A stretch of 64,000 nt of DNA from Candidatus Omnitrophota bacterium. Its GTDB lineage: Bacteria; Omnitrophota; Omnitrophia; Omnitrophales; Aquincolibacteriaceae. Positions 23,100-38,077 of the stretch are shown here, in pieces (the stretch's first letter is position 1; every line of letters starts with the position of its first letter). The notes under the pieces were generated by a model that was not told the origin of the DNA, did no database searches, and saw only the letters and a list, made by a program, of their open reading frames with translations. Where the stretch lies: assembly GCA_903884815.1 (NCBI GenBank), contig CAISGE010000002.1:109955-173954 (forward strand). Reading direction: 5' to 3'. The position numbers were made by a program, and so were the translations under genes.

Positions 23100-23155
23100 A
23101 AACAGCTGGGGGCCTGCGGATGACGGCTCCCTTTTCCTTTGATGGACGAGGGGAA

Positions 23156-23746
23156 ATGCAAAGAAAAACAATAGCGTTCCTTTTTCTCGCCCTCCTGCTT
23201 TATCCCGCCACACTGCTTTTCTCCGAATCACCCCTGACTGTCACCCGCGTGATCGACAGTGATACCCTGGAACTTTCGAGCGGCGAAACCGTGCGCCTGA
23301 TCGGGATCGATTGTGATGAGCAGGAATACAGTCCAGCAGACGCGGCGTATCTTAACCGTGGCAAGAAGTGGGAACGCGGCCCAGATTCACTAAAACACGC
23401 CAAGGAAGCGGCGGAGTTCACTCGCAAGCTGGTGGAAGGCAAGAAGGTCAGACTAGATTACGATGTCCAGCGGAGGGATAAATACGGGCGATTGTTAGCC
23501 TATGTTTATGTCTTGGTATGCAACAACTGCGATGTTCTTAGGGCGGCAGAATATGAATATCTGGATATGATAGATCCGGACGAAAGCAATGCTGTTTGTA
23601 TCTTTCTTAATGCAACCCTCATCAAGGCTGGCTACGCCCAAGTCGTGACCGTCCCGCCGAGTGTGAAGTACGCTGACCTGTTCGTGAAGCTGGAGAAGGA
23701 AGCCAGGGGGAGGAAAAGGGGGTTGCGAAGTGAGGGTAAAATTTGA
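23156..23746 (+). CDS. Secreted thermonuclease (staphylococcal nuclease, SNase)-like protein, copy 1.
   Basis: Signal peptide. SNase motifs RVIDSDTLEL, TVRLIGIDCDE and DKYGRLLAYVYV. The C-terminal tail is conserved with the other copies (KAGYAQ...VKY..LFVKLEKEAR). Confidence 0.75.
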   Translation: MQRKTIAFLFLALLLYPATLLFSESPLTVTRVIDSDTLELSSGETVRLIGIDCDEQEYSPADAAYLNRGKKWERGPDSLKHAKEAAEFTRKLVEGKKVRLDYDVQRRDKYGRLLAYVYVLVCNNCDVLRAAEYEYLDMIDPDESNAVCIFLNATLIKAGYAQVVTVPPSVKYADLFVKLEKEARGRKRGLRSEGKI

Positions 23747-24861
23747 GCGAAGAACATATGCGGAAATACAAGTATGACAACTTCGGCAATGATCTTGCTT
23801 CTGAGCTCGGGCAGAAAGTTCGATGCACCCGATGTTTGGGGCCGTCCAGCATCAGGAAACAGGATGGCGGCGCCGTGAATAAAGAGCTTCCGTATGACAT
23901 GTATATACATTGGCAGTTATTAAGGGAGTGTAATTTTTCATGTGAATATTGTTATTCTTCCCCGCAGACCGGCCCGGCAAAAAAAGCGGATGTTGCGCGG
24001 ATAGTTCACCGGTTAGATGCTTTTGGGAAGACATCTCTTATTTCATTTACAGGAGGGGAACCTTTTCTTGTTCCGAATTTTATCGAGCTGGTGAAGGAAT
24101 TAACAAAAAGACATTATGTTCGCATCGATACGAATCTCAGCCTTTTAGCAGCTTGCGAGAGCTTTATCAAGGAGGTTGATCCGGAAAGGATTTGCGAGAT
24201 AGTTTTTTCGATTCATGCCGGAGAAAGGGAGAAACGCAAGATGCCGCTGCGGGACTTGTGCGCTCTTGTAAGAAAGTTCCGAGATCGCGGATTTATCATG
24301 ACGGGAAATTATGTCGTCTACCCCACGCTGTTGAAGAGGTTCTCGGATGACATGAAAATATTTCGAGAGAATGCGGTCAGTGTTTTGCCTAGTTTGTTTG
24401 TCGGAAGACAGGGCGGTAAAAATTATCCAATGCATGCCGGCAGGTTAGCTTACGAGCAAAACGCCTTTGATTTGATCTCAGGGATAAATCCAAAGGTAAA
24501 TCTCGTTTTAAACAGGAGCGTCGGCGAATTGTGCCCGGCGGGGGTAAATTCATTTTTTGTTAATTCCGATTATAAGGTTTTTGCCTGTGCGGCTATCCGG
24601 AGGGAAATAGGCGACTTTTGGGGGGATTGGAAGATGTTTCCCAAGGTCGTGCGGTGTCCGATGGAGTATTGTTACTGCCCATTTAATAAACCTTTTGTGG
24701 TGGGTCAGAGGACTCAAATACAGACTTCATTGCTGAAAGACGCTCTCCATCGGAACGGCGAGGCATCCGTTTGGCAATCTAGATTCTTAACAAGGGATAT
24801 GCGGAGAGGGGTAAAAAGGTTTGTCGAGCGCCTTGTTGAAAAGTTCTCGCTGCGTGAATAG
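23743..24861 (+). CDS. Radical SAM enzyme with a C-terminal SPASM/twitch-like Cys cluster, copy 1.
   Basis: CNFSCEYC is a CxxxCxxC radical SAM motif. The C-terminus carries CPAG...C...CPMEYCYCP. The track start is a TTG at 23743 overlapping the SNase stop, and an alternative ATG lies at 23758. Confidence 0.75.
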   Translation: MSEEHMRKYKYDNFGNDLASELGQKVRCTRCLGPSSIRKQDGGAVNKELPYDMYIHWQLLRECNFSCEYCYSSPQTGPAKKADVARIVHRLDAFGKTSLISFTGGEPFLVPNFIELVKELTKRHYVRIDTNLSLLAACESFIKEVDPERICEIVFSIHAGEREKRKMPLRDLCALVRKFRDRGFIMTGNYVVYPTLLKRFSDDMKIFRENAVSVLPSLFVGRQGGKNYPMHAGRLAYEQNAFDLISGINPKVNLVLNRSVGELCPAGVNSFFVNSDYKVFACAAIRREIGDFWGDWKMFPKVVRCPMEYCYCPFNKPFVVGQRTQIQTSLLKDALHRNGEASVWQSRFLTRDMRRGVKRFVERLVEKFSLRE

Positions 24862-24910
24862 GCTTTAAATTGCAGAAGGAAGCACGGGAACAGAAAAGGG
24901 GGATTTGGAA

Positions 24911-25384
24911 ATGAAGAAGTACTTGTTCGCGATCGCGGCATTGTGCCTGGCGGCCACCACCATTGCGGCGGAGAGTCGCGCATCAAACGGATCAACAGAG
25001 ACCCTTAAGAAGGTTAGATCGGTTCTGCCTCAAGGCTGGTTCATTGTCAAAGTTGTGAAAGGGCCGTCTTCTCCGAACCATTACGCGGAGGATGCACAAG
25101 AGGCTGTTGTTGTTTTGATCAGCAATCCATCAATCGATGCGAAAATGAAAAGTAAAGCCAAGATCGGGCCGTACGAGCTCTATCTGATGGACCTTCGCTA
25201 TAAAGAGAAAAGCCATACAGTCTCAGCTCTGCATCCGGAGGTCGCGGAACGGCCTGCGCGATACCTCGGCAGAAGTGAGCATTTTAAAATTTATTGGGGT
25301 GGGGGTATGTGGGGACTCGATCCTGTTGAAAAGAAACTTGAGGCTGACGTCAAACAAGCGTTGAGCATTGCTACGGAAAAGTGA
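24911..25384 (+). CDS. Secreted hypothetical protein.
   Basis: Signal MKKYLFAIAALCLAATTIAAESRA. Preceded by the recurring junction element at 24878-24914. Confidence 0.5.
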   Translation: MKKYLFAIAALCLAATTIAAESRASNGSTETLKKVRSVLPQGWFIVKVVKGPSSPNHYAEDAQEAVVVLISNPSIDAKMKSKAKIGPYELYLMDLRYKEKSHTVSALHPEVAERPARYLGRSEHFKIYWGGGMWGLDPVEKKLEADVKQALSIATEK

Positions 25385-25396
25385 GGAGTCGTTAAA

Positions 25397-26356
25397 ATGA
25401 GGAAGCTATTATTCGTGATCACGGCGCTGTGCCTAGCGGCCTCGGCGGGGTATGGGGAGGAATCTTCCGGGAATTTCCCGTTCAGCAAGATCGAGAGGAG
25501 GGGCGGCGTGGTCCGCCTGCAACTTCCTGACCATGGATTCCGGTGGCTCATAGGTGTAAATACGGAAAACCGCGCGAAGCTCAGAAGGTCGAACTATTCG
25601 GAGGTCGTGGAGTTGAAGACCCGCGGGATCTTGGGTGGGGACAAGCTTTATATGATTGAAAAGCATCAACAGATCGTCATCGAACCTATTTTTCAGGGCA
25701 AAGCCCTTTTTTTAAAGCAAACCGTTAAAACGGATTTGCGTAGCATGGGCGGCTCCGTAAAGATTGAAAAATCCTTTATTCCCGTGCCGGACGAGGGAAA
25801 GCAGCTGCAAGCGAGCCTGGCGCCGGAGGGTTCTTTGGTTGTGAAACGCGTGATCGACGGTGATACCCTGGAACTTTCGAGCGGCGAAACTGTGCGTCTG
25901 ATCGGAATCGATTGTGAGGAAAACGAGTACAGTCCTGCCGAGGCGGTCTATCTTAACCAAGGAAAAAAATGGAAGCGCGCGCCGGGATCTCTGATGCACG
26001 CTAAGGCGTCGGCAGATTTCGCCCGCAAGCTGGTCGAGGGCAAGCAGGTTCGGTTGGAGTACGACGTTCAGAAGAAGGATAAGTCCGGCAGGACGCTGGC
26101 GTATGTTTATCTATTGCCAAGGCAGGCAGAGAATCATGACAAGACCGTTCTTGAATTCGGACGTTTTTTGGATGATGGTTATGGCGGGCCGGGAAAATCG
26201 AGCCTCGTCTTTATCAACGCCACCCTCATCAAGGCTGGCTACGCCCAAGGCATGACCTCCTCCAAGGATGCCATCCCGCCGAATGTGAAGTATCAGGAGT
26301 TGTTTGTGAAGCTGGAGCAGGAAGCCAGAGAAAATAAAAGGGGGTTGTGGAAATGA
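25397..26356 (+). CDS. Secreted SNase-like nuclease with an N-terminal extra domain, copy 2.
   Basis: Signal MRKLLFVITALCLAASAGYG. The C-terminal SNase domain (RVIDGDTLELSSGETVRLIGIDCEENEY...) is nearly identical at the DNA level to copy 1 (25852-25940 versus 23260-23345). Ends ...EARENKRGLWK*. Confidence 0.75.
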   Translation: MRKLLFVITALCLAASAGYGEESSGNFPFSKIERRGGVVRLQLPDHGFRWLIGVNTENRAKLRRSNYSEVVELKTRGILGGDKLYMIEKHQQIVIEPIFQGKALFLKQTVKTDLRSMGGSVKIEKSFIPVPDEGKQLQASLAPEGSLVVKRVIDGDTLELSSGETVRLIGIDCEENEYSPAEAVYLNQGKKWKRAPGSLMHAKASADFARKLVEGKQVRLEYDVQKKDKSGRTLAYVYLLPRQAENHDKTVLEFGRFLDDGYGGPGKSSLVFINATLIKAGYAQGMTSSKDAIPPNVKYQELFVKLEQEARENKRGLWK

Positions 26357-26691
26357 AAAAACAGAAAAATCAGAACGTGGTAACACCAAGCAACGTCCTT
26401 TCTTCTTACGACCCAGTTAAAGTTGCCTTGGCAGAAGGAAATATATACGGAGCAGGCGCTTCGGGGAGATTCAAGAAGAGTTGGGTGACAAGGCTGGGTT
26501 TTATTCTTCTGGCGCTACCGTTTCTTGGCTACGCTATCTTTATGTTTCCTATGATTTATAAGAGCTTGTCTGAAGCCATCAACGTCAAAACAACTGAGGT
26601 TACACTGGCGGTCGGCATTGGAGGCATGCTTCTCGACTTATCCTGCCTTTGGCTGGGACTTAAATTAATCGCAGGTGCGTTAAAGAAATAA
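26353..26691 (+). CDS. Small two-TM membrane protein; hypothetical.
   Basis: An ATGA overlap with the SNase-2 stop, inside the junction element. The hydrophobic helices suggest a membrane protein. Confidence 0.5.
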   Translation: MKKQKNQNVVTPSNVLSSYDPVKVALAEGNIYGAGASGRFKKSWVTRLGFILLALPFLGYAIFMFPMIYKSLSEAINVKTTEVTLAVGIGGMLLDLSCLWLGLKLIAGALKK

Positions 26692-26703
26692 TAGGAGGGG
26701 GTT

Positions 26704-27153
26704 GTGGAAAAGAAAAGGTCAATAGGTGTAATGGTCATTTCTATAGTTAATTTGCTGGTAGGTTTGCCCGTGCTTTTTTTATGCCTCCGTTTTTTCATTT
26801 CAAATTATGAAAAGTTCATATCGCAGCTAGGTGATTTGTCTTTTTTCAGCGTTTTCGTTTTTATACTCTATGTTCTTATGGCGCTAACAGCTGTTTGTTT
26901 CCCCGTCCTATTTAGTTATGCGGGAATTTCAACTTATAATCTCAAGCCTGGTTCCGTAGCCCTCAATAAGGCTATCGCTAAATGGACGATTGTTTTCGTG
27001 GGGGGAGGCGAAGTTATTTTTGCGGTTACGCTTGCACCGCATCTAATGATTAGAATGGAATTCAGCCTTCTTGTGACGCTTGCCGCCGTGCTGTATTTTA
27101 TGTGGGTGCAAATGTATTTCACGCATCCCAAAGTTAAGGAGCAGTTCAAGTAA
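26704..27153 (+). CDS. Four-TM membrane protein, paralog family A (C-terminus ...P.VK.QFK).
   Basis: GTG start after GGGGGTTGTGGAAAAG. The C-terminal THPKVKEQFK is shared with the 30507 and 34426 genes. Confidence 0.5.
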   Translation: MEKKRSIGVMVISIVNLLVGLPVLFLCLRFFISNYEKFISQLGDLSFFSVFVFILYVLMALTAVCFPVLFSYAGISTYNLKPGSVALNKAIAKWTIVFVGGGEVIFAVTLAPHLMIRMEFSLLVTLAAVLYFMWVQMYFTHPKVKEQFK

Positions 27154-27214
27154 GGACCCCGAACCGCAAGGGGCCGCGGCAGGGAGCGCGGGAACAGAAA
27201 AGGAGGTTGTGGAG

Positions 27215-27496
27215 ATGAAAAGGATATTTGTAATAATATTAACATTAAGTATCTTGCTTGGAATTTCTGACGTTGCGTTTGCGAAGCACCATCATTCTAA
27301 AAAAGCAGAGGCCCCGAATAACAAAGAGGATCAAGGGAGGAAGGTGACGTGCCTCGTCAAGGGCGTCCCGCAAATGGTGAGGACAGAAGGCGTTTGTAAG
27401 GATTTTAACGGCACCGTGGTGCCCGAAAAAACTCCTCCAGGAGCAACGGCGGTGCCGGAGAAAAAAATAACGGCGCAAAAAATAGAAAGCAAATAG
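27215..27496 (+). CDS. Small secreted protein (93 aa) with a His-rich segment and 2 Cys; hypothetical.
   Basis: Signal MKRIFVIILTLSILLGISDVAFA. Preceded by the junction element GGGAACAGAAAAGGAGGTTGTGGAGATG. Confidence 0.45.
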   Translation: MKRIFVIILTLSILLGISDVAFAKHHHSKKAEAPNNKEDQGRKVTCLVKGVPQMVRTEGVCKDFNGTVVPEKTPPGATAVPEKKITAQKIESK

Positions 27497-27537
27497 ATCC
27501 CTCGTTATGAATTGAAAATGATCAGAAAGGCAACTCT

Positions 27538-27741
27538 ATGACACGCATAATCTTTTTGGCAGCACTGGTTTTGACCTTCAGCGGTTGTTGCACTTCTCAG
27601 TCGGCGGCGGACTTGCAAATCAGCCAGGACGAGGCGAAGCTGACACGGATGTACCGCGAGTGCATTGAGAAGAATCTTGGCCATGGGGAAGCCATGAGGA
27701 AGGATTGCGAGCCGATCCTTGGCCCCTATGTAAGTCATTAG
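27538..27741 (+). CDS. Small lipoprotein (67 aa) ending ...KDCEPILGPYVSH.
   Basis: Lipobox LTFSGC. The 3' end is repeated at 29254-29310. Confidence 0.4.
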   Translation: MTRIIFLAALVLTFSGCCTSQSAADLQISQDEAKLTRMYRECIEKNLGHGEAMRKDCEPILGPYVSH

Positions 27742-27838
27742 AGGCGGGGGCGACGAAGGCGTTTAACCGGTTGGAGGGTGATGTTGAGTTCGGGGAGATG
27801 ATGGAGGATTAAAAGAGTAAGAAAAAAAGGAGGGTTCT

Positions 27839-28006
27839 ATGAACGGAAGTGATATGACAATGATCGTAACGTATATCGTCGGGAGTCTCCTTGTTTTTCT
27901 CGTTTGCAGAGAAATCGTGTGCTGGTATTTTAAAATGAATGAAGTCACGAAGTTGCTTCGGGAGATCAAGGAATGTTTGAAAAGCCATCCCTCCCTTAAG
28001 TCTTGA
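27839..28006 (+). CDS. 55-aa single-TM peptide (MNGSDMTMIVTYIVGSLLVFLVCREIVCWYFKMNEVTKLLREIKECLKSHPSLKS); hypothetical.
   Basis: A strong RBS AAAAAGGAGGG 7 nt upstream. Below the 60-aa cutoff of the ORF track. Confidence 0.35.
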   Translation: MNGSDMTMIVTYIVGSLLVFLVCREIVCWYFKMNEVTKLLREIKECLKSHPSLKS

Positions 28007-28090
28007 TGGGGGGGGGGAAGAGGCTGCTTCGGGATGCGGGCGTGCATCGTAGTTTATTAAAATGATGAGGCAGCTAAAGGAGAAGGCAAA

Positions 28091-28708
28091 ATGAAGCTAA
28101 AAACAATTTCTATTTTAGGATTGTTACTGGCGCTCAACATGGGCACCGTTTGGGCGGGACAGTATGTTTTTTCCGGGTATGGGAAACGAGTCTTGTTTGG
28201 TTCGATCGACAAATCTCGCATGTGTACCGTGAGCTTCTCTGTGGATGAGACGTTGCCATCGAGTGAAATTGTTGCGACCCTTCGGTTTACGAATACAGGC
28301 AATGCTCCGATGAAAGGCGATCCATTCTTCTCTCAAACAACGCAAATTGTTTCCAAGGATGAGAAGACCTATGAGGTGCCATGGGCGACTGGAATGGTGG
28401 AGTTGAAAGACGGAAGTAAATACGAGATTCCCGGCACAGTGACTCCCGAAAAGGTTGAAGATGTCGTGAAAAATCATCCCGAACTAAGAAAGCCGTCACC
28501 TTTTGAGACATTAGTGGCTCCTCTGGAGGATGACTCGGAGGAGGCTTCTAAAAACAAAGAAGTTCGACTTATTAACCCGGGCGGCATAGCGGAGAAGGTG
28601 CTGTATATCAAAGATCCGCTTATTCGGGCTGTGATAACATCAAATAATGTGAAGAGTGTCATTTTAAATTGCGGCATGGGAAAATTCGTTCTTACCCAAC
28701 AGTCTTAA
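28091..28708 (+). CDS. Secreted hypothetical protein (205 aa).
   Basis: Signal MKLKTISILGLLLALNMGTVWA. RBS AAAGGAGAAGG. Confidence 0.5.
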   Translation: MKLKTISILGLLLALNMGTVWAGQYVFSGYGKRVLFGSIDKSRMCTVSFSVDETLPSSEIVATLRFTNTGNAPMKGDPFFSQTTQIVSKDEKTYEVPWATGMVELKDGSKYEIPGTVTPEKVEDVVKNHPELRKPSPFETLVAPLEDDSEEASKNKEVRLINPGGIAEKVLYIKDPLIRAVITSNNVKSVILNCGMGKFVLTQQS

Positions 28709-28791
28709 AACATGAGATGAAAACGGGCGTTTATCAAGAGGATGCGGCGGATTAAAGGAAGAAATAACAGGAGCCGTTGGGGAAGGACATA

Positions 28792-28920
28792 ATGCGCTAT
28801 GCCATTGGCCTGATAAGTAAGTTGGATGGTCCCACGATAATGTTTCTGGGCATTTTCTCCCTTACTATCATTGTCATTTGCATGGTTGGGATATCTTTTC
28901 CAAAGAAGCGGGGAAAATAG
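28792..28920 (+). CDS. 42-aa hydrophobic peptide; hypothetical.
   Basis: RBS GGGGAAGGA upstream. A single TM. Very short, so the confidence is low. Confidence 0.2.
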   Translation: MRYAIGLISKLDGPTIMFLGIFSLTIIVICMVGISFPKKRGK

Positions 28921-28950
28921 GAGAGGGAGAACCTACGAAGGAGAGGATAT

Positions 28951-29253
28951 ATGCTGTTCGGATGTTTCGTGACCAGAGCTGAGGATCAAAGCGGTGCTAT
29001 GATGCGGATAATTCTGTTGTTATCTGGGATTTTGTTTTTGGCGGGCTGTGCGACATCGACATCCCAAACTGCTTTTGTGGATGCCGGGGGGCATGCGTGC
29101 ACGAAAGCCTTTAAAAAAGTCGCGCCTTTTGGAATTGCGATCAGCGAAAGCGTCGAATGCTCGGAGATTGCTACTTTTGCTCCCGCCGAATCGTCCAAGC
29201 CCTCATCCCCGAGGAAAGCAAAACAAAAGAAACATTGGTTCTGGCCATTTTAG
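28951..29253 (+). CDS. Lipoprotein (100 aa). Its stop is immediately followed, in frame, by a remnant EDKDCEPVLGP*.
   Basis: RBS AGGAGAGGA. Lipobox LFLAGC. The in-frame remnant after the stop matches the 27538 gene's C-terminus. Confidence 0.4.
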   Translation: MLFGCFVTRAEDQSGAMMRIILLLSGILFLAGCATSTSQTAFVDAGGHACTKAFKKVAPFGIAISESVECSEIATFAPAESSKPSSPRKAKQKKHWFWPF

Positions 29254-29340
29254 GAGGACAAGGATTGCGAGCCGGTCCTTGGCCCGTAGGGAAGTCATGA
29301 GAGGCAGAGTCGGGGAGCCGTAGAACCAAGCGAGGGGCGT

Positions 29341-30393
29341 ATGAACGCGATCGCGAAGGACGTTTATCAGAAGCTGGTGCGGGAGATCGGCGAGATCTAT
29401 GAGGGTGCGCGTAGGACCCTGGTCGAGGCCTATTGGAAGATCGGACAGAGGATCGTTCGGGTCGAACAGCAGGGCGCGGTCAAAGCCGTTTACGGTTCCG
29501 GTCTCCTTCAAAAAATCTCCGAAGAGCTTACGCGAAAGTGCGGTCCTGGATTTTCCGAATCGAACCTCCGGCGCATGCGGCAGTTCTACCTGAGTTACCC
29601 AATTCGTGCGGCGCCGCACGAATTGACCTGGACCCAATACTCGGAGCTTCTCCCCGTCGGGAATGCCGCAGTTCGGAAACGGCTTGAAAAGCAGGCCCTG
29701 AGGGAAGGACTTTCTCACAAAGCAATCCGCAAGCTTGTCCAGTCCGAACGCGTTCGCGAAGAAGCTCCTTCCCCCTCCGCAAGTCCCGAGTCCCGAGCGA
29801 CGAGTCCCGATCTTTTAATCCCCCTCCGCGGAAAGCTTCACACGCATCAGATCGCCCTCAAAGGGGGCGCGCTTTATCTCGACCTGGGCTTCCGTATTTA
29901 CCGCCCGCTGACGCCAGACCAAGCTGCGGCGGGGTTCAAAGAAGGCGATATTGTCAACGTGGAACCCCTTCAACCTACGCGGTTGAAAAGGTCGGAGTCT
30001 GGCTCCGGAGCCCTTTATACGTATGAAGCGGCGCTTGACCACATCTATGACGGCGACACGCAGTGGTATTTTATTTTTACGGGGCGCGGAGAAGGGCCGG
30101 GAAATAAAAGTGCCGGCTTTATGAAAAACGACAAGCTCCGGCTCCGCGGGATCGACTGTCCGGAGCTTAAGTACGCGGCGGGGAAGGCGGCGAAGCGCTT
30201 CGTGGTGGAGCTTTTCAGCCGGGCGGTGGGGATGACCGTCACGACGACGAAGCCCGACAAGTACGACCGCTACCTTTCCGATATCTTTCTCCGGATGAAG
30301 GACGGGGCGGAGCTTTTCCTCAATAACGAACTTCTCGCGGCCGGCCACGCCTGCTTGTACAGCGATCCCAAGCCCAAGGATTGGGAAGATTAA
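29341..30393 (+). CDS. Fusion protein with an N-terminal YhcG/DUF1016-like domain and a C-terminal SNase-like nuclease domain (no signal peptide).
   Basis: N-terminus LVEAYWKIGQRIVRVEQQGA...GFSESNLRRMRQFYLSYP is DUF1016_N-like. C-terminus HIYDGDTQWYF...LRLRGIDCPELKY...KYDRYLSDIF is SNase-like. Confidence 0.65.
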   Translation: MNAIAKDVYQKLVREIGEIYEGARRTLVEAYWKIGQRIVRVEQQGAVKAVYGSGLLQKISEELTRKCGPGFSESNLRRMRQFYLSYPIRAAPHELTWTQYSELLPVGNAAVRKRLEKQALREGLSHKAIRKLVQSERVREEAPSPSASPESRATSPDLLIPLRGKLHTHQIALKGGALYLDLGFRIYRPLTPDQAAAGFKEGDIVNVEPLQPTRLKRSESGSGALYTYEAALDHIYDGDTQWYFIFTGRGEGPGNKSAGFMKNDKLRLRGIDCPELKYAAGKAAKRFVVELFSRAVGMTVTTTKPDKYDRYLSDIFLRMKDGAELFLNNELLAAGHACLYSDPKPKDWED

Positions 30394-30435
30394 CGCGGGA
30401 AAAAAGAAAATGGGGTTAGGTCTTGTTTTCTTTGG

Positions 30436-30510
30436 GTCGTAAAGTATCTGGAGCTGTTCGTGAAGCTGGAGAAGGAAGCGAGAGAAAACGAAAGGGGGCT
30501 TTGGAAATGA
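30436..30510 (+). repeat. Orphan SNase 3'-end fragment (encodes VVKYLELFVKLEKEARENERGLWK*) carrying the RBS and start of the downstream gene.
   Basis: About 85% DNA identity to 26285-26356, the 3' end of SNase copy 2. No upstream SNase body. Confidence 0.6.
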
Positions 30511-30971
30511 AAACAGGAGCTGTGGTATTTATTAAAAAAGGAGAACAGAAAAAGAAACTACCCAAGGGTGTGAAAATAATTGGCATTTATCACAAGTGGT
30601 TTGGTGGAATTTTGGGTTTCTTCTCATCGCTTGCATATCTTTTTGAGCTTTTTTTTCCAAATTTTCTTCCTCAGTTTATTGGGAGGATGCCGCAACACGG
30701 GGAGAACATATTTTATGTAAAAATTTACTGTATCCTTAGTCTAATACTTTCACCTATCTGCTATATTTTGGGAAGCCAACTTTTGCAATTCAAGGAAAAA
30801 GGAAGGAAAGGCATTTTATATCTTACCGTTTTTTACATATTTCTTACTCCTTGGCTTAATGTGTTAGCGTATAACATAAAATCACCAAGCAGAATCATTT
30901 TGTCAGTATTGTTGCAGTCGTTGGTCATTTGCTATCTTAGCCGTCCCAACGTCAAAGCCCAGTTCCAATAA
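30507..30971 (+). CDS. Multi-pass membrane protein, paralog family A (C-terminus RPNVKAQFQ).
   Basis: An ATGA overlap with the orphan fragment's stop. The C-terminus is shared with 26704 and 34426. Confidence 0.5.
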   Translation: MKTGAVVFIKKGEQKKKLPKGVKIIGIYHKWFGGILGFFSSLAYLFELFFPNFLPQFIGRMPQHGENIFYVKIYCILSLILSPICYILGSQLLQFKEKGRKGILYLTVFYIFLTPWLNVLAYNIKSPSRIILSVLLQSLVICYLSRPNVKAQFQ

Positions 30972-31029
30972 GGACCCCGAACTACATGGGTACGTGGCGG
31001 GGAGCACGAGAACAGAAAAGGGGGTTGTG

Positions 31030-31674
31030 ATGGAGATGAATGATGCGGAAAAGTTGAAGGGAACTGGCGGGTGGTTGGGGCTATACATTCTCTTGGGATT
31101 TTTGGACCTTATATCGGTTCCGGTTATTTGTTTGTTTCCAACCGTTGAAACTGTTTCGCGTGCAGTTCTGATCATATGTAATGCAATAGCCTGCTTTTTG
31201 CTCATAAAGAAAAATAGTAATGCAGTGAAATGGACACGGCTTTTTCTATGGAGCCAAATGGGCGTGGATGCTGCTTTTTTCCTTTTCCATGCGCCTGATT
31301 TTTTATGGACATGGTCTTCCGGCAGGAATTACTACGAAGCTTTTTTTGCAATTAGAGGAACCCTGGGGGGTATTTTTTCGGCATGGATCTGGTTATCATA
31401 TTTTGAAAAATCAGAACGAGTAAAATTGAACTTTCCCGACTCTTTGCTCCCCGCACCCAGTAACCAATCGGTACGATTATGGAATTGGGTGGGTGTGATT
31501 GTGATATTAATTTACCTCCCACTCACAGTTTATGGGCAGGTATTAAAGGCCCAAATAAAACCGATCATAAGGGAATCTATAAAAAAAGGCGGGACATCTG
31601 TGGGCAGCCTGCTGAGAAATCCATTGGCATTACAGAAAGAGGCTCTCCGGAAATTGTGGGAATCGAAACATTGA
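31030..31674 (+). CDS. Multi-pass membrane protein (215 aa), possibly DUF2569-like.
   Basis: N-terminal GTGGWLGLYILLGF and 5-6 hydrophobic helices. Preceded by a conserved spacer GGACCCCGAAC...GAACAGAAAAGGGGGTTGTG. Confidence 0.45.
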   Translation: MEMNDAEKLKGTGGWLGLYILLGFLDLISVPVICLFPTVETVSRAVLIICNAIACFLLIKKNSNAVKWTRLFLWSQMGVDAAFFLFHAPDFLWTWSSGRNYYEAFFAIRGTLGGIFSAWIWLSYFEKSERVKLNFPDSLLPAPSNQSVRLWNWVGVIVILIYLPLTVYGQVLKAQIKPIIRESIKKGGTSVGSLLRNPLALQKEALRKLWESKH

Positions 31675-31681
31675 GAAAACT

Positions 31682-31861
31682 ATGACCGAAGACCCCAGCA
31701 AGAATAAACCCACCAATCTCGACATCCCCGGATCTGAGCCGGAAGCGAATTCTGAGGCGAAGGTCACTTTGCTGAAGCGCGGACTTTTGATCCTGATCTT
31801 TTTCGGCATAGGCATGCTCATCGCGACCGCCTGGTATATGACGAAGCGGTATTGGCGTTGA
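31682..31861 (+). CDS. 59-aa peptide with an acidic N-terminus and a C-terminal TM (…LLKRGLLILIFFGIGMLIATAWYMTKRYWR).
   Basis: Intact ORF. A frameshifted copy lies at 35486-35664. Confidence 0.35.
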   Translation: MTEDPSKNKPTNLDIPGSEPEANSEAKVTLLKRGLLILIFFGIGMLIATAWYMTKRYWR

Positions 31862-31927
31862 AAATGCAAGCACGGGGACAGACAAGGGGATTGTGGAAAT
31901 GAAGCTATTTTTCAAAAGGAGAATGAC

Positions 31928-32989
31928 TTGAGTCATTCCTGCCGCGCCATTTCTTTTTTGCCGATCACCGCTGTTCTTGAAATGACTTATCGGTGTAATC
32001 ACCAGTGCCAGTTCTGTTCCTGTCCTTGGATGACGGAGGAGCATGTCTCCATGAAGGGGAAAGAGCTTTCCACGGTTCAATGGAAGGCCGTTCTTGATCT
32101 TTTGGCGCGGCAGGGCGTTCACCAAATCTGTTTTACGGGCGGTGAAGCGCTATTACGCCCCGATCTTCCCGAGATCATGGCTTACGCTTCACGGCTGAAG
32201 GTTAAAGTGATCAAGGATAAAGACGGTCAACTGGCGGAACACATAGCGTCCCCCAAACTATACCTTTTATCGAATGGTGCGTTGGTCGACGATGCTATTC
32301 TCGACCTCTGCAAGAGAGATGACATCCAGCTGAGCATCAGCATGCCCGGGCTGCGCACTTTTGCCGAATTGACCGGCGGGGGTGACGTGAACAAAATACT
32401 GCGTATCTTCGAGAAAGCCCGGGAGCGCGGCCTTTCAACGGTGGTGGGCATCACTGTGACAAAGAAGAATCTTTTCGAACTCTACGAAACGATTTCAGCG
32501 GCCTTTCTTGCGGGGGCGACCCAGCTTTTATTAAATCGATTTCTTGAAGGCGGTCGCGGGCGCCGCTACGCCCGGGAACTTGCTTTAAGCCGCGCAGAAT
32601 TGATCGAAATGCTCGATGTCGCGGAACAAGCGCTTCATGATGCGGGCCGTTATGGCTCGGTGGGGACCGAGCTGCCGCTGTGCTTGTTCACCTCTGGTAA
32701 ATATAAGAGATTAGAGGTTTCAACGGGATGTTCTGCGGCCAAGGGTTTTTTTGTGATCGGTCCATCGGGAAAAGTGAGGGTTTGCAATCATTCGCCGGTG
32801 GAGCTGGCGCACTATTCGGAGATCGAAACCTTGAAAATGGATCCGTATTGGATGAAATTCGCCCGGAGTGATTACTTACCCGCCATGTGTGCGGGGTGTG
32901 AGGATGCCGGTCGTTGTGCCGGTGGATGCCGGGAAGCCGCGCATATTGTCGCGGGCGCGATCAACGCGCCGGACGCTCTGCTCATTTAA
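31928..32989 (+). CDS. Radical SAM/SPASM-domain enzyme (peptide or protein-modifying maturase, or anSME-like), copy 2.
   Basis: CNHQCQFC radical SAM motif and a full SPASM motif CAGCEDAGRCAGGC (CX2CX5CX3C), plus further upstream Cys. TTG start. Confidence 0.8.
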   Translation: MSHSCRAISFLPITAVLEMTYRCNHQCQFCSCPWMTEEHVSMKGKELSTVQWKAVLDLLARQGVHQICFTGGEALLRPDLPEIMAYASRLKVKVIKDKDGQLAEHIASPKLYLLSNGALVDDAILDLCKRDDIQLSISMPGLRTFAELTGGGDVNKILRIFEKARERGLSTVVGITVTKKNLFELYETISAAFLAGATQLLLNRFLEGGRGRRYARELALSRAELIEMLDVAEQALHDAGRYGSVGTELPLCLFTSGKYKRLEVSTGCSAAKGFFVIGPSGKVRVCNHSPVELAHYSEIETLKMDPYWMKFARSDYLPAMCAGCEDAGRCAGGCREAAHIVAGAINAPDALLI

Positions 32990-33003
32990 AGAAAGGAGAC
33001 AGG

Positions 33004-33645
33004 ATGCTTTTTATTCAAATCGCTTTGGTCACGATGCTTCTTCTTGGGCTCACGGTTTTATCCGCTTGCACAAAGCAGGCAAATCAATCAGATGCCAAGA
33101 GTAAGCAGGCGGTTACGTCCGAGCAAATCCAAGCCATGTCGCGTGAGGATATACAAAGAGCCTTGAAAAGGATCGAATCGAGTCATACGCCAACGTCGCA
33201 AAAGATGGGCGCGATGTGTTATGAACCAGTAGCTCCCGCATCTGGATACTTCGAATATGTTTGCCCCGTTGACGGCGATAAAACAGTTTTTTCGCTAAAA
33301 TCCAATGCATTTGATCAGGCAACCCATTTGCAGGAGCTTAGAGGCTCGGTCGAAAGATTGCGTCCGCTTGCTAAGGGGATCGCCCTATCACTTGATGAAG
33401 GCAGGCTTTGCGCCAAGTGTCATCCGGCGCTTCCTGATGCGGAAAGATTTGTTTCCCTGGTTCTTCAATATGCCGATGGAAGAACGGTCCGTACGGATCG
33501 GGTGACTCCTGAGGACCTCAAATATCTGACGGGGTTCTTTTCCGGCGGATTAAGCTATTTATCTCAAGGTCCGGATCAGGAGCCCCTGAAGCCTAAAGTG
33601 GCTCGCCTCAAGGAGCTGTTGGGTGAGAAAGGAGTAGGCACATGA
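33004..33645 (+). CDS. Lipoprotein (213 aa) with 4 Cys, including a CAKCH (CXXCH) motif.
   Basis: RBS AAAGGAGA. Lipobox LTVLSAC. Paralogous to 33642-34262. Confidence 0.5.
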   Translation: MLFIQIALVTMLLLGLTVLSACTKQANQSDAKSKQAVTSEQIQAMSREDIQRALKRIESSHTPTSQKMGAMCYEPVAPASGYFEYVCPVDGDKTVFSLKSNAFDQATHLQELRGSVERLRPLAKGIALSLDEGRLCAKCHPALPDAERFVSLVLQYADGRTVRTDRVTPEDLKYLTGFFSGGLSYLSQGPDQEPLKPKVARLKELLGEKGVGT

Positions 33646-34262
33646 TGTTCTTGCAAATTGTTTTTGTCGTGATGCTTGTTCTGGGGCTCACGGTTTTATC
33701 GGCTCGTGCGCAGCAGGCGGATCCGCCCGACACCAAGAGTAAGCAGGCGGTGACTTCCGAGAAAATCCAAGCCATGTCGCGTGAGGATATACAAAAAGCC
33801 TTGAAAAGGATCGAGTCGAGTAATCCGCCGGCGAAGAAGATGGGCGCGATGTGTTATAAAATGGGTGAAACACCTGAAAACTTTGAATATGTTTGCCCCG
33901 TTGACGGGGAGAAAACCGTCTATTCACGAGCCCAAGCATCTAAACAGGCAGTAGATTTGCAGGGGCTCAGAAGTTCGATCGAAAAATTGCGCCCGTTTGC
34001 AAAGGGGATCTCCCTATCGCTCGATGAGAGCAAACTCTGCGCCAAGTGTAATCCGGCACTCCCCGATGCGGAAAGATACGTTTCCCTTGTCCTTCAATAT
34101 GCCGACGGGAGAACGGTCCGCACAGACAGGGTGACTCCCGAAGATCTGCGTTATTTGACAGGGTTCTTTTCTGGAGGATTAAGCTATGAAACTTTTAATG
34201 AGGGGCAGGACCCCCTCAAGCCTGTTGAAGGTCGGTTGAAACAGCTTTTGGGGGAGCAGTAA
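33642..34262 (+). CDS. Secreted paralog of the 33004 lipoprotein (CAKCN in place of CAKCH).
   Basis: An ATGA overlap. Long stretches of near-identical DNA with the upstream paralog. Confidence 0.5.
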   Translation: MMFLQIVFVVMLVLGLTVLSARAQQADPPDTKSKQAVTSEKIQAMSREDIQKALKRIESSNPPAKKMGAMCYKMGETPENFEYVCPVDGEKTVYSRAQASKQAVDLQGLRSSIEKLRPFAKGISLSLDESKLCAKCNPALPDAERYVSLVLQYADGRTVRTDRVTPEDLRYLTGFFSGGLSYETFNEGQDPLKPVEGRLKQLLGEQ

Positions 34263-34353
34263 TTCCGCCTTCATAAAATGTCCGCTGTTTTTGGGAAGGT
34301 CCGTATGCGGAAGAGCGGGAACGGAAAAGAAGGCTAGTGCCTGTTTTCTAAGG

Positions 34354-34428
34354 GTCGTAAAGTATCTGGAGCTGTTTCGTGAAGCTGGAGAAGGAAGCGA
34401 GAGAAAATAAAAGGGGGTTGTGGAGATG
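34354..34428 (+). repeat. Second orphan SNase 3'-end fragment (frameshifted) carrying the start of the downstream gene.
   Basis: Near-identical to 30436-30510 apart from a 1-nt insertion (gctgtttcgtg versus gctgttcgtg). Confidence 0.6.
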
Positions 34429-34911
34429 AGAAAAATATCAGCAGGATTGAGGGGGACAGGATGGCTGTTGGTATTATATGGATTGATTTCTTTTTGCGGG
34501 CTTGCGGTTAGCTTCTTTTTAGGTGCTCTCCTTAGTATACGCCAAGCACCAATGTCGGAGTCACAATACCGTACATCTGTGGACCTTGTTACGAGTGTTT
34601 TTATGCCTCTTCCGAATAAATTTGTCGCAATAGGAATGCTTATAGGTGGGATAGGGGTATTAAGGCTAAAGTCATGGGGAAGATGGCTTGTGGTAGGAGC
34701 TATCCTTACCGATTTTATTCAAAAATCATTCTGGATGTACGCCTCTTCACGATTCAACCTAGATTTTATTTTTCAAACCGAATTGACTGTTTTTGTATTT
34801 TATTCTTCTCTTTTCTTGGAGTTGCTGGTTCTTTTGTATTTTATGCGCCCCAATGTAAAGATACAGTTCAAACAAGGAACCACGGGAACAGAAAAGGGGG
34901 TTGTGGTGTGA
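34426..34911 (+). CDS. Multi-pass membrane protein, paralog family A (…RPNVKIQFK then GTTGTEKGVVV encoded by the junction element).
   Basis: N-terminal GTGWLLVLYG. The C-terminal family motif. Its 3' end runs through the GGGAACAGAAAAGGGGGTTGTGG element. Confidence 0.5.
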   Translation: MRKISAGLRGTGWLLVLYGLISFCGLAVSFFLGALLSIRQAPMSESQYRTSVDLVTSVFMPLPNKFVAIGMLIGGIGVLRLKSWGRWLVVGAILTDFIQKSFWMYASSRFNLDFIFQTELTVFVFYSSLFLELLVLLYFMRPNVKIQFKQGTTGTEKGVVV

Positions 34912-35489
34912 ATGCTAAGGTTAGAGCTTTCATTGGCGGGGCACTCGGAGTTGTCGTAATTTTCATAATAACATTCAGTTCTATTGGATACGGGGAGGAA
35001 ACAAAAAGGGCGTACTATGCGAATGGGAAGTTGCAGGGCGAGATGATTTATAAGAACGAAAGTAATGAGTCTCTGTCTAAGGAATATTACGAAAGCGGGG
35101 AATTACAAGGCGAGACGCTTTTCAAGAACGGAATGCTTGAAGGGCCGTATAAACTTTATTACAGAAACGGACATGTGCGGGAAGATGGATCTTATAAAAA
35201 TGGCTATCGTGAAGGGCCGTATAAAGAATATTACGAAAGCGGGCAATTGAAAGAGGCGAAAGCTTATGTGAATGGAAAACCAGAGGGGCCGAGTGAAGAG
35301 TATTACCCGAGCGGGCAATTGCATGTCGAGAGAAATTTCAAGAACGGAATGCAAGAGGGACTGATGAAGTCTTATTACGAAAGCGGGCAATTGCAATCCG
35401 AGGTATCTTACGAGAAGGGAGAGCCTGGCGAGGGAACGATAAAGCTCTATGGTCTAGACGGAAAATTAATGTCCGTGAGAAAACCATGA
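34908..35489 (+). CDS. YwqK/MORN-variant repeat protein with an N-terminal TM anchor.
   Basis: GTG start overlapping the upstream stop. About 8 repeats of the form Y(K/E)NG.(L/R)EGPYKEYYESGQL. Confidence 0.55.
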   Translation: MNAKVRAFIGGALGVVVIFIITFSSIGYGEETKRAYYANGKLQGEMIYKNESNESLSKEYYESGELQGETLFKNGMLEGPYKLYYRNGHVREDGSYKNGYREGPYKEYYESGQLKEAKAYVNGKPEGPSEEYYPSGQLHVERNFKNGMQEGLMKSYYESGQLQSEVSYEKGEPGEGTIKLYGLDGKLMSVRKP

Positions 35490-35664
35490 CTCCAGACCCT
35501 ATCAAAAAGCAACTCTCCGACCCCGCGATCCCAGGATCTGAGACGGAAGCGAATTCTGAGGCGAAGGTCACTCTGCTGAAAGCGGACTTTCGATCCTGAT
35601 CTTCCTCGGCATAGGTATGTTGATTGCAACTGCCTGGTTGATGGCGAAACGGTATTGGCGTTGA
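35486..35664 (+). pseudogene. Frameshifted copy of the 59-aa peptide gene (31682-31861).
   Basis: About 85% DNA identity to 31712-31861, with a 1-nt deletion producing a premature stop (…KVTLLKADFRS*). Confidence 0.4.
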
Positions 35665-35763
35665 AGATTGAATTACGGGAACAAAAAATGCGTCCCCGTG
35701 GGACGCCGTTCCGTCCCGAGGTTATTCAGAGTTTATCGTGGTGTCTCTAAAATGGAGGTGAGT

Positions 35764-36246: not shown

Positions 36247-36350
36247 GCACCAGTTTTTATTTTACAGCCCGGCGGTTCTGCGGCCAGTTGGAAAGACCGG
36301 ACGCAGTCTCGTTTTCAGGAAGGACGACTCAACGGCGGGAAGGATGAAAG

Positions 36351-36695: not shown

Positions 36696-36828
36696 GCTAA
36701 CGCTTCCCCGCGCCTGCCCGCCAACGCATTGTGGCGGGGGATGCCGTTGGGTTCACACGGTAGTAGAATGGAACCCTTCGACGCGGATCCGCGGAAAGCA
36801 GGTATGTCAAAACAAGGAGGCGATTGAA

Positions 36829-37938: not shown

Positions 37939-38077
37939 GTGGGGGACAGACCGGGCGCGTTTCGCTCCATATAGCTTCTAGGTAATATGGCCGAAGTTAA
38001 TAAGGCTTGGCTTTCTTGAGGCTTAGAGGATACAAACGGAAGCGCATATCCATTCAAAAAATGGCGGGTTTGATAAA

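What the first reader, a model, noticed from the sequence alone, without database searches (positions are those of the whole stretch)
23711..34910. Recurring junction element (SNase 3' end, RBS and overlapping start) present at least 10 times in 12 kb
A conserved sequence ...GAAGC(C/G)AGAGAAAA(T/C)(A/G)AAAGGGGGTTGTGGA(A/G)ATGA, or its shorter form (G/C)ACGGGAACAGAAAAGGGGGTTGTGG...ATG, occurs at 23711-23746 (degenerate), 24878-24914, 26285-26356, 26690-26706 (partial), 27188-27217, 30436-30510, 31001-31039, 31866-31902, 34354-34428 and 34880-34910. In the SNase genes it encodes the C-terminus ...EARENKRGLWK* and at the same time supplies the RBS (AAAGGGGG) and the overlapping start codon for whatever gene follows. 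Different downstream genes follow different copies. The pattern behaves like a recombination handle allowing 3'-flanking cassettes to be swapped, in the way att sites or polymorphic-toxin conserved regions do. Alternatively it could be a conserved translational-coupling or regulatory RNA element.
Basis: seen in the sequence. Interest (0 to 1): 0.75.

Follow-up and report, generated by a model that had tools for sequence, protein, structure and literature searches.

The report
Nuclease gene tail reused as ribosome-binding site
The last 30-75 bases of a secreted nuclease gene happen to form a strong ribosome-binding site plus an overlapping start codon, and they survive about ten times in front of unrelated genes in one strain-specific gene island of an uncultured Omnitrophota bacterium; this is a tidy evolutionary curiosity, not a new kind of genetic system.

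Summary
There are ten copies, all on the + strand and all between 23.7 and 34.9 kb (0.54 expected by chance), plus three decayed copies.

Every copy derives from the 3' end of a thermonuclease (SNase, PF00565) gene.

The same bases, AAAGGGGGU, pair over 9 bp with the 16S 3' end of a relative. A start codon that overlaps the stop (ATGA) follows 7 nt later.

Two copies end intact SNase genes; the other eight strong copies are orphan fragments. Their 5' boundaries vary and their 3' boundary is fixed, and each sits in front of a different gene. Copies with no gene behind them have decayed.

An orthologous MORN gene in another Omnitrophota genome keeps 25 of 26 element bases although its coding sequence is only about 70% identical.

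Most likely the element is an SNase-derived translation-initiation region, left as a deletion scar and kept by selection.

I found no RNA structure, no inverted repeats, no recombinase and no alternative junctions in about 19 contigs. The whole 15-kb island is absent from syntenic relatives. The recombination-handle idea is therefore only weakly supported.

The parts
23699..23746 (+). 3' end of intact SNase gene 1 (23156-23746). This is a degenerate copy of the element (29/36 to consensus). The C-terminus has drifted to ...KRGLRSEGKI* and the canonical ATGA start is lost.
24870..24914 (+). Orphan SNase 3' fragment of about 45 nt (reads LQKEAREQKRGIWK* in the SNase frame). It starts 9 nt after the stop of radical SAM gene 23743-24861 and supplies the SD and ATG (24911) of a 157-aa signal-peptide protein.
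   Evidence: 34/36
26285..26356 (+). True 3' end of intact SNase gene 2 (25397-26356, ...VKYQELFVKLEQEARENKRGLWK*). Its stop overlaps the ATG of the next gene (ATGA at 26353-26356). This is the ancestral, functional form of the junction.
   Evidence: 35/36
26684..26713 (+). Shortest orphan copy (about 30 nt, 25/36). The stop codon of the 112-aa gene 26353-26691 lies inside it. It supplies the SD for the GTG start (26704) of a 149-aa 4-TM protein.
27185..27218 (+). Orphan short-form copy (…GAREQKRRLWR*), 31 nt after the stop of membrane-protein gene 26704-27153. It carries the canonical SD variant AAGGAGG and supplies the ATG at 27215 of a 93-aa secreted protein.
   Evidence: 31/36
30395..30417 (+). 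Decayed copy (19/36) directly after the stop of the DUF1016_N-SNase fusion gene 29341-30393. It has no start codon behind it.
30439..30510 (+). Long orphan SNase 3' fragment of 72 nt (VKYLELFVKLEKEARENERGLWK*), with ATGA at 30507-30510 starting a 154-aa 4-TM protein.
   Evidence: 32/36
31003..31039 (+). Orphan short-form copy after membrane-protein gene 30507-30971, with a 3-nt insertion in the spacer. It supplies the SD and start (ATG 31030 or 31036) of a 214-aa membrane protein with weak DUF2569 similarity.
   Evidence: 32/36
31868..31931 (+). Orphan short-form copy (31868-31902) plus the 10-codon uORF it initiates (ATG 31899, MKLFFKRRMT*). The uORF contains an AAGGAG SD, and its stop overlaps the TTG start (31928) of a radical SAM/SPASM gene (TTGA).
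   Evidence: 32/36
34310..34339 (+). Decayed copy (23/36) with the SD and start destroyed. It is the paralogue of 30395-30417 and lies just 5' of the second long fragment.
34357..34429 (+). Second long orphan SNase 3' fragment. It has a 1-nt insertion that breaks the SNase frame, and ATGA at 34426-34429 starting a 161-aa membrane protein.
   Evidence: 35/36
34877..34911 (+). Orphan short-form copy, read through by the preceding membrane-protein gene (its stop is mutated to CAA). A GTGA overlap (GTG 34908 / TGA 34909-34911) starts the MORN-repeat gene. 25 of 26 bases are conserved upstream of the MORN orthologue in L007.
35670..35688 (+). Truncated copy holding only the left half (ACGGGAACAAAAAA), after a frameshifted paralogue of gene 31682-31861. 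Homology to the 31868 copy breaks inside the element.
23100..38100 (+). The lower-GC, single-strand accessory island that contains every copy. It is absent from syntenic relatives, where the Zn-ribbon gene (ending at window 23099) joins directly to the homologue of window 38116 onward.

Best explanation
The element is the terminal 30-75 nt of a secreted thermonuclease (SNase) gene, co-opted as a self-contained translation-initiation region.

In the intact gene the last codons (E-A-R-E-N/Q-K-R-G-L-W-K-stop) encode the family's conserved C-terminus. The same bases, AAAGGGGGU, are complementary over 9 bp (one G.U pair) to the 16S rRNA 3' end. Seven nt downstream an ATG overlaps the TGA stop (ATGA), so the next gene is translationally coupled to SNase.

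Within a 15-kb lineage-specific island, SNase-plus-partner modules were duplicated. The SNase bodies were then lost by deletion. Only deletions that spared the last ~30 nt or more were tolerated, because that stretch is the ribosome-binding site and start of the downstream gene. The result is orphan fragments with ragged 5' ends and one fixed 3' end, each in front of a different gene in what looks like one long co-oriented operon.

Shown here:
- the sequence identity of all copies to SNase 3' ends;
- complementarity to the anti-SD, and the spacing to the start;
- the variable 5' and fixed 3' boundaries;
- decay of copies that have no gene behind them;
- cross-genome conservation.

Inferred, not shown: that ribosomes actually initiate there, that the array is one transcript, and that deletion rather than another recombination route created each junction.
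For: 1. Origin. The core codons are K-R-G-L-W. SNase 25397-26356 matches Pfam PF00565 to profile position 106/107 at its last residue. Intact SNases in unrelated metagenome contigs end with the same nucleotides and an overlapping ATG: L015 ends ...EAREQKRGLWK* (the exact 'short form') and L011/L016 end ...EAREKKRGLWEE*.

2. All orphan copies read as SNase C-termini in the SNase frame.

3. Ribosome-binding function. The 16S 3' end of a syntenic relative is ...GGATCACCTCCTTTCT. Reading the sequence against it, AAAGGGGGU pairs over 9 bp, followed by a 7-nt spacer to the start. Other genes of the window use AAGGAG-type SDs.

4. Boundaries. Homology to SNase extends 30, 34, 36, 45 or 72-75 nt upstream in different copies, but always ends just past ATGA.

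5. Selection depends on a downstream gene. Copies followed by a start are 29-35/36 identical to consensus, with one at 25/36. The three copies with no start behind them are 16-23/36, with the SD and ATG destroyed.

6. Purifying selection across genomes. Upstream of the MORN orthologue in Omnitrophota MAG contig L007, 25 of 26 element bases are identical, the coding sequence is about 70% identical, and the sequence further upstream is unalignable. My binomial estimate for 25 or more of 26 at 70% identity is about 1e-3.

5b. Flanks outlast genes. Next to the three membrane-protein paralogues, the noncoding element is 80-93% identical, while the proteins share only a 12-residue C-terminal motif whose third codon positions vary.

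7. Other deletion scars that preserve coupling are present: a 10-codon uORF with a TTGA overlap to the radical SAM start, and a gene whose stop lies inside the element.
Against: - The upstream half of the element (CACGGGAACAGA), which is not part of the SD, is as conserved as the SD half (about 93% versus 94% to consensus, counted from the alignment). A plain SD requirement does not explain this. It needs either a longer ribosome or standby contact, or an additional binding factor.
- The deletion model requires that many unrelated genes each once sat behind an SNase gene, or that relic-to-gene fusions arose repeatedly near the ATGAAR start. No intermediate was observed.
- There are no expression or ribosome-profiling data.
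- The consensus used to score decay was built from the conserved copies, so that comparison is partly circular.
- One copy (26684) that does precede a gene is only 25/36.
Confidence: 0.6

Rival explanations
1. Recombination handle or cassette junction. The direct repeats act as substrates (homologous or site-specific) through which genes are inserted, swapped or lost, so that promoterless genes are captured into an expressed array, analogous to integron cassettes or orphan toxin/immunity modules.
For: - The three membrane-protein genes 26704-27153, 30507-30971 and 34426-34911 have unalignable interiors but both flanks 80-93% identical, so flanks and interiors appear to have different histories.
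- Runs of single genes are each bracketed by copies (26321/26684/27185; 30475/31003; 34394/34877).
- One homology breakpoint lies inside the element (31880/35683).
- In L014 an orphan copy sits next to a tyrosine-recombinase gene fragment.
- Element plus MORN occurs in a different context in L007.
- The island is an accessory insertion.
Against: - About 19 contigs carrying SNase2 and 17 carrying the 154-aa gene, from several samples and assemblers, all show the same gene order. Five fetched stretches are 99.97-100% identical and colinear.
- The island has no integrase, transposase or other recombinase.
- The element has no inverted-repeat architecture (only CCAC...GTGG), and the island has no minus-strand self-similarity apart from one unrelated 26-nt palindrome at 29600-29625.
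- The 5' boundaries are ragged, not fixed.
- Most copies share only 30-36 nt with mismatches. From general knowledge of RecA, this is near or below the minimum efficient length for homologous recombination.
- Copies without a downstream gene decay, whereas a recombination site would not depend on a start codon.
- The closest homologue of the 161-aa gene in another organism has no element on either side.
Confidence: 0.15
2. Shared translational operator. The 26-36-nt block is the binding site of an RNA-binding protein or small RNA that co-regulates all element-led genes. It overlaps the SD so that binding blocks initiation. This reading is compatible with the SNase origin.
For: The non-SD upstream half is conserved as strongly as the SD half in seven orphan copies, including two from other contigs (alignment). 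The element is off-consensus relative to the genome's usual AAGGAG SD, yet it is preserved.
Against: No candidate regulator was identified. No conserved secondary structure was found (-2 kcal/mol, 0 compensatory pairs). There was no Rfam match. The 'long-form' copies differ in exactly that upstream half (GAGAAAATAAAA versus GGGAACAGAAAA) and still precede genes.
Confidence: 0.15
3. Neutral leftovers. The copies are young debris of recent segmental duplications in a fast-turnover island and have no function of their own.
For: The island contains other duplicated pieces at 70-89% identity (SNase1/2, 33004-33645/33642-34262, 31672-31880/35476-35683, 27700-27745/29260-29305). Some copies belong to the same duplicated blocks.
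Against: - The element is the only sequence shared between otherwise unrelated contexts.
- It is far better conserved than the adjacent coding sequence, both within the island and between genomes.
- Conservation tracks the presence of a downstream start.
Confidence: 0.1

Closest known systems
Overlapping stop/start (ATGA) translational-coupling junctions with the SD embedded in the upstream gene (surveyed in PMC6728339; reviewed in PMC12548453)
   Same: The intact form SNase2->next gene (26353-26356) is exactly this: a 4-nt ATGA overlap with the SD inside the last codons of the upstream ORF. The junction at 33642-33645 in the island is another ATGA overlap, and GTGA/TTGA variants occur at 34908-34911 and 31928-31931.
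   Different: Here the junction has been detached from its upstream gene. It persists as a 30-75-nt orphan in front of at least seven unrelated genes, and at two further loci outside the window.
Orphan toxin-CT/immunity modules of CDI and Rhs/polymorphic toxin loci (from general knowledge)
   Same: Both are arrays in which gene fragments homologous to part of a nuclease-type gene precede different downstream genes, in a variable accessory region.
   Different: In those systems the conserved handle is upstream of a variable toxin domain (VENN or PxxxxDPxGL) and the retained unit is toxin-CT plus immunity. Here the retained piece is the extreme 3' end only, it has no coding role, and the downstream genes are not a recognisable immunity family. 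No large CdiA or Rhs gene is involved.
Integron gene cassettes / attC arrays
   Same: Both are co-oriented arrays of small, mostly uncharacterised, promoterless-looking genes separated by a recurring short sequence, in an accessory region.
   Different: The element has no attC architecture (no R''/L''-L'/R' imperfect palindrome and no GTTRRRY core; it reads GTTGTGG). It is 30-36 nt long rather than 55-140. No IntI is present. The repeat lies at the 5' start of the genes and includes their SD and ATG.
Staphylococcal-nuclease family (Pfam PF00565) C-terminal motif
   Same: The element's codons are the family's terminal ...K-(K/R)-G-L-W motif. The same nucleotides end intact SNases in L011, L015 and L016.
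   Different: Eight of the ten strong copies are not part of any SNase ORF.

Membership tests
SNase (PF00565) gene 3' end, as the origin of the element | Sequence encodes the C-terminal end of the SNase profile in frame with an SNase domain | tested here: met
   25397-26356 matches profile 1-106/107 to its last residue. The L011 and L015 SNases do the same with the same nucleotides. All orphan copies translate to ...EARE(N/Q)KRGLWK* in that frame.
ATGA-type translational-coupling junction | Stop codon of the upstream ORF overlaps the start codon of the downstream ORF, with an SD inside the upstream ORF | tested here: met
   Met for the intact junction at 26353-26356 and for 34908-34911 (GTGA). 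In the orphan copies only a short vestigial frame ends at the TGA.
ATGA-type translational-coupling junction | Downstream translation depends on upstream translation (termination-reinitiation) | not testable with these tools
   Needs reporter or ribosome-profiling data.
Shine-Dalgarno ribosome-binding site | Complementarity to the 16S rRNA 3' end at 5-10 nt from a start codon | tested here: met
   The 16S 3' end of relative L027 is CACCUCCUUUCU. AAAGGGGGU gives 9 bp with one G.U pair, and the spacer is 7 nt (6 in L014, 10 in the 31003 copy).
Integron attC site | Imperfect inverted repeats (R''-L'' / L'-R'), 55-140 nt, with a GTTRRRY core | tested here: not met
   No inverted repeat was found in or around the copies, and the minus-strand self-BLAST of the island found only one unrelated 26-nt palindrome. 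The core reads GTTGTGG. The conserved length is 30-36 nt.
Integron attC site | Integron integrase (IntI) adjacent to the array | tested here: not met
   No Phage_integrase or other recombinase domain was found in the 20 island proteins scanned. The gene upstream of the array is glmS plus a Zn-ribbon protein.
CDI/Rhs orphan toxin-immunity modules | Conserved pre-toxin handle upstream of a variable C-terminal toxin domain followed by a cognate immunity gene, with a large CdiA/Rhs gene upstream | tested here: not met
   The conserved piece is the last 10-24 codons, not a pre-toxin motif. No CdiA or Rhs gene lies in the island, and the downstream genes are heterogeneous.
Structured cis-regulatory RNA (riboswitch, leader, thermosensor) | Conserved secondary structure with covariation, or a match to a curated RNA family | tested here: not met
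   RNAalifold on 7 copies gave -2.0 kcal/mol and 0 compensatory pairs. There were no Rfam matches in the window at gathering thresholds.
MITE / REP-type intergenic repeats | Terminal inverted repeats or palindromic units, found in both orientations and dispersed in the genome | tested here: not met
   All copies are on one strand. None lies in the 49 kb of the window outside the island. No palindromic structure was found.

The most novel reading that the evidence does not exclude
The element is the working site of an unrecognised gene-capture system. A ~30-nt sequence would serve at once as a recombination target and as a ready-made ribosome-binding site with start codon, so that any gene joined to it is immediately translated inside a long operon. 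This would be functionally analogous to an integron but without attC or IntI. The unknown recombinase would be encoded elsewhere; the tyrosine-recombinase fragment next to the L014 copy is a hint.
Probability: 0.08. Interest if true: 0.75.

Novelty: new variant of a known kind. Interest (0 to 1): 0.35.

Why it matters
If the reading is right, this is a clear natural example of coding sequence being exapted into a portable translation-initiation module. Codons kept for a protein motif (KRGLW) double as an unusually long Shine-Dalgarno sequence. When the gene decays, exactly that piece survives because downstream genes depend on it.

It illustrates how translational coupling constrains gene loss in long operons. 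It also explains why short 'orphan' gene tails can be conserved for reasons unrelated to the parent protein.

Practically, it warns annotators that such repeats need not be mobile-element or recombination sites. It also provides a compact natural ribosome-binding cassette for the uncultured phylum Omnitrophota.

The phenomenon appears confined to one lineage: the window species, plus two other loci found in about 600 Gb of genomes and the metagenome collection. Its general importance is therefore modest.

Tried and rejected
- **Known RNA family:** Rfam scan of the whole window found nothing. There are no tRNA or tmRNA genes that could mark an integration site.
- **Conserved RNA structure:** an alifold of seven orphan copies gave a trivial 5-bp stem with no covariation.
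- **Integron attC, MITE or REP:** no inverted repeats and a single orientation.
- **Generic SD context of this organism:** rejected. Other genes use AAGGAG-type SDs, and no other site in the window scores above 8.2 bits.
- **Element as an obligatory flank of the membrane-protein family:** rejected. The 52%-identical homologue P0002 (L020/L021) has no copy on either side. MORN homologue loci L022-L024 also lack it.
- **Genome-wide and collection-wide spread:** the exact-pattern scan found 5 hits in GTDB genomes, 10 in metagenomes and 0 in viral contigs. These are mostly genuine SNase ends or isolated, probably chance, matches. Only L007 and L014/L018 are orphan copies.
- **Phage or plasmid origin of the island:** no megablast match.
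- **Defence-system membership:** PADLOC gave only generic radical-SAM, SNase and DUF1016 hits. NCBIfam hits were also generic and all below the curated cut-offs.
- **Promoters or terminators next to the copies:** no enrichment over shuffles.
- **Circular permutation of a MORN cassette:** a hairpin-like GGGACGCCGTCCC lies upstream of the L007 copy and downstream of the window's MORN gene. The 16-nt match has E=0.21, which is not significant.
- **Alternative junctions in populations:** all contigs retrieved for two island genes are colinear.

Full report

Yes. The 14-nt core AAAGGGGGTTGTGG, allowing two mismatches, occurs 10 times in the 64-kb window. All copies are on the + strand and all lie between 23715 and 34906. 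Dinucleotide shuffles give 0.54 expected, and none of 100 shuffles reached 10. A weight matrix spanning 56 nt scores the ten copies at 39.8-72.8 bits, while the best other site on either strand scores 8.2 bits.

I found three more copies that are decayed or truncated: 30395-30417, 34310-34339 and 35670-35688. A self-BLAST of the island shows that the element is the only sequence shared among otherwise unrelated gene contexts. All other similarities are simple paralogue pairs.

**2. What is the sequence?**

In the reading frame of the thermonuclease gene 25397-26356, the core reads AAA-AGG-GGG-TTG-TGG, which is K-R-G-L-W. The gene ends ...VKYQELFVKLEQEARENKRGLWK*. The Pfam SNase profile (PF00565) is matched to position 106 of 107 at the last residue. 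The element is therefore the coding sequence of the family's conserved C-terminus.

In the same frame it reads E-A-R-E-Q-K-R-G-L-W-K-stop. Exactly these nucleotides terminate an intact 181-aa SNase in an unrelated metagenome contig, L015. A close variant terminates the 179-aa SNase of L011/L016. In each case an ATG overlaps the end of the SNase gene.

Of the ten strong copies, two are the ends of intact SNase genes: 23156-23746, which has drifted, and 25397-26356. The other eight are orphan SNase 3' fragments with no SNase body upstream.

**3. Why would that fragment matter to the downstream gene?**

A syntenic relative (L027, about 77% nucleotide identity in the flanks) carries its rRNA operon next to the same Zn-ribbon gene. 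Its 16S rRNA ends ...GGATCACCTCCTTTCT. Read against this tail, AAAGGGGGU forms nine consecutive pairs, one of them G.U. The start codon follows after a 7-nt spacer.

In the canonical copies the start is the ATG of ATGA, so the stop of the SNase frame overlaps the next gene's start. This 4-nt overlap is the classical arrangement for translational coupling by termination-reinitiation (PMC6728339, PMC12548453).

Other genes in the window use ordinary AAGGAG-type Shine-Dalgarno sequences. The element is therefore not just this organism's generic leader.

**4. Anatomy of the orphan copies**

Homology to SNase extends upstream by different amounts in different copies: about 30 nt (26684), 30-36 nt (27185, 31003, 31868, 34877), 45 nt (24870) and 72-75 nt (30439, 34357). 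It always ends at the same place, a few bases past ATGA. Ragged 5' ends with one fixed 3' end are what deletion scars look like when only the 3' part is indispensable. A site-specific recombination site would have fixed boundaries.

Other scars that preserve coupling are visible:
- The stop of gene 26353-26691 lies inside a copy.
- The stop of 34426-34911 has mutated (TAA to CAA), so the gene reads through the element to a GTGA overlap with the MORN gene.
- The copy at 31868 initiates only a 10-codon uORF. That uORF carries an AAGGAG, and its stop overlaps the TTG start of a radical SAM/SPASM gene.

The two long fragments are each preceded by a decayed short copy plus about 18 nt. This is consistent with an SNase gene that itself sat behind a short copy and then lost its interior.

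**5. Is the element under selection?**

Three lines of evidence say yes.

(a) Copies followed by a start codon are 29-35 of 36 identical to the consensus, with one at 25. The three copies with nothing to initiate are 16-23 of 36, with the SD and ATG destroyed. The caveat is that the consensus derives from the conserved copies.

(b) The three 4-TM membrane-protein genes 26704-27153, 30507-30971 and 34426-34911 share only a 12-residue C-terminal motif (YFxRPNVKxQF). Its third codon positions vary, which indicates old, protein-level conservation. Their interiors are unalignable. Yet the noncoding element copies on both sides are 80-93% identical.

(c) In contig L007, from a Candidatus Omnitrophota MAG, the orthologous MORN-repeat gene is about 70% identical in its coding sequence and unalignable further upstream. 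Even so, 25 of the 26 element bases directly before its ATG are identical. By a simple binomial estimate, the chance of 25 or more matches out of 26 at 70% identity is about 1e-3.

A further orphan copy precedes an unrelated 172-aa gene in L014/L018, next to a tyrosine-recombinase gene fragment.

**6. Context**

The organism belongs to Candidatus Omnitrophota. The Zn-ribbon protein's 77%-identical homologue is labelled as such, and the flanks are syntenic.

All copies lie in a 15-kb stretch (23.1-38.1 kb) with lower GC (0.46-0.52 against about 0.55) and strong positive GC skew, and all its genes are on one strand. In related genomes, sampled by four contigs (L025, L026, L031, L032; 80-83% nucleotide identity in the flanks), the Zn-ribbon gene joins directly to the homologue of window 38116 onward. 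The whole island is therefore lineage-specific. No element copy exists in the relatives' syntenic regions.

What it actually shows is that the island is accessory, not that the element is unreal.

The island contains three SNase genes (one fused to DUF1016_N), two radical SAM genes, a MORN protein, and many small membrane proteins and lipoproteins with no family assignment. It has no recombinase. It has no counterpart among plasmid or phage records.

**7. Tests of the recombination-handle idea**

Two island genes, each looked up by its exact protein sequence, were found on about 19 and 17 metagenome contigs from several lakes and assemblers. Every contig has the same gene order. Five fetched stretches are 99.97-100% identical to the window and colinear. 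No alternative junction was seen.

The element has no inverted-repeat architecture. It is not accompanied by promoter- or terminator-like signals beyond chance, has no conserved RNA fold and matches no Rfam family. The closest homologue of one bracketed gene in another organism lacks the element on both sides.

The mosaic pattern in point 5(b) is the only positive evidence for recombination. Differential selection explains it equally well.

**8. Conclusion and scores**

The best explanation (confidence about 0.6) is that the element is an SNase-derived, self-contained translation-initiation region. It consists of coding sequence that doubles as a long SD plus an overlapping start. It was detached from its gene by deletions after module duplication and is retained because downstream genes in a tightly coupled array need it.

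One point remains unexplained. The non-SD upstream half is as conserved as the SD itself. This leaves room for an extended ribosome contact or a shared translational operator (about 0.15). An actively used recombination handle (about 0.15) and purely neutral debris (about 0.1) are less likely.

It is a new variant of known things: ATGA coupling junctions and orphan gene fragments in variable arrays. It is not a new category. It seems confined to one lineage. Interest: 0.35.

Noticed in passing
window 23100-38100: The whole 15-kb stretch between the Zn-ribbon gene (ending at 23099) and the 514-aa gene (38078 onward) is missing from four related contigs (L025, L026, L031, L032), where the two flanks abut. 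It includes the Old Yellow Enzyme gene 36829-37938. I saw no integrase and no obvious direct repeats at the junctions. The site lies two genes downstream of glmS.
   Followed up: partly
L027 10925-16429 (also probably L029, L030): In another relative (about 77% identity) the same Zn-ribbon gene is followed by a complete rRNA operon (16S, two tRNAs, 23S, 5S). This position is therefore a rearrangement hot spot in the lineage.
   Followed up: partly
window 29341-30510: The DUF1016_N-SNase fusion gene matches only SNase profile positions 1-78 of 107 and stops at a TAA (30391-30393). The long orphan SNase tail (30439-30510), which encodes the missing profile end, lies in the same frame 15 codons downstream. 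This could be a disrupted single gene or a coincidence (1 in 3).
   Followed up: partly
window 28951-29312 and 27538-27741: After the stop of the small lipoprotein gene ending at 29253, an in-frame 46-nt stretch (29260-29305) is 89% identical to the 3' end of lipoprotein gene 27538-27741 (...KDCEPILGP). This is another gene tail stranded behind a premature stop.
   Followed up: no
window 35487-35665: A frameshifted (pseudogene) paralogue of the 59-aa membrane-peptide gene 31682-31861, about 81% identical over 209 nt. Homology ends inside the element copy.
   Followed up: partly
window 31899-32989: A 10-codon uORF (MKLFFKRRMT*) overlaps, via TTGA, the only start that keeps the CxxxCxxC motif of a radical SAM/SPASM (peptide-maturase-like) gene. 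Three gene callers chose three different starts. The 59-aa gene just upstream might be its substrate peptide.
   Followed up: no
window 33004-34262: Tandem paralogous lipoprotein genes (213 and 206 aa, 77% nucleotide identity), joined by an ATGA overlap at 33642-33645. They match no Pfam family. A variant strain has 203- and 205-aa versions.
   Followed up: no
window 24909-24955 vs 25395-25441: The signal-peptide coding region of the 157-aa gene behind the 24870 copy is 79% identical to that of SNase gene 2. This hints that the first codons after the element can also be inherited from an SNase gene.
   Followed up: no
window 29600-29625: A perfect 26-nt palindrome inside the DUF1016_N-SNase gene. 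It is the only inverted repeat found in the island.
   Followed up: no
window 49350-59435: A single 3361-aa ORF (a giant protein) on the + strand. Not examined.
   Followed up: no
window ~30250-30640 (ends of contigs behind L004, L035 and one contig without DNA): Three independent assemblies break within about 400 nt of the 30.4-kb double copy, although the sequences that are present are identical to the window. This could reflect strain heterogeneity or repeat-induced fragmentation at this junction.
   Followed up: no
L014 1242-2241 (minus strand): An orphan element copy lies 11 nt after the stop of a 146-aa C-terminal fragment of a tyrosine recombinase and directly before a 172-aa gene of unknown function. 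The contig comes from the same sample as L002, and its tetranucleotide profile resembles the island (r=0.87).
   Followed up: partly
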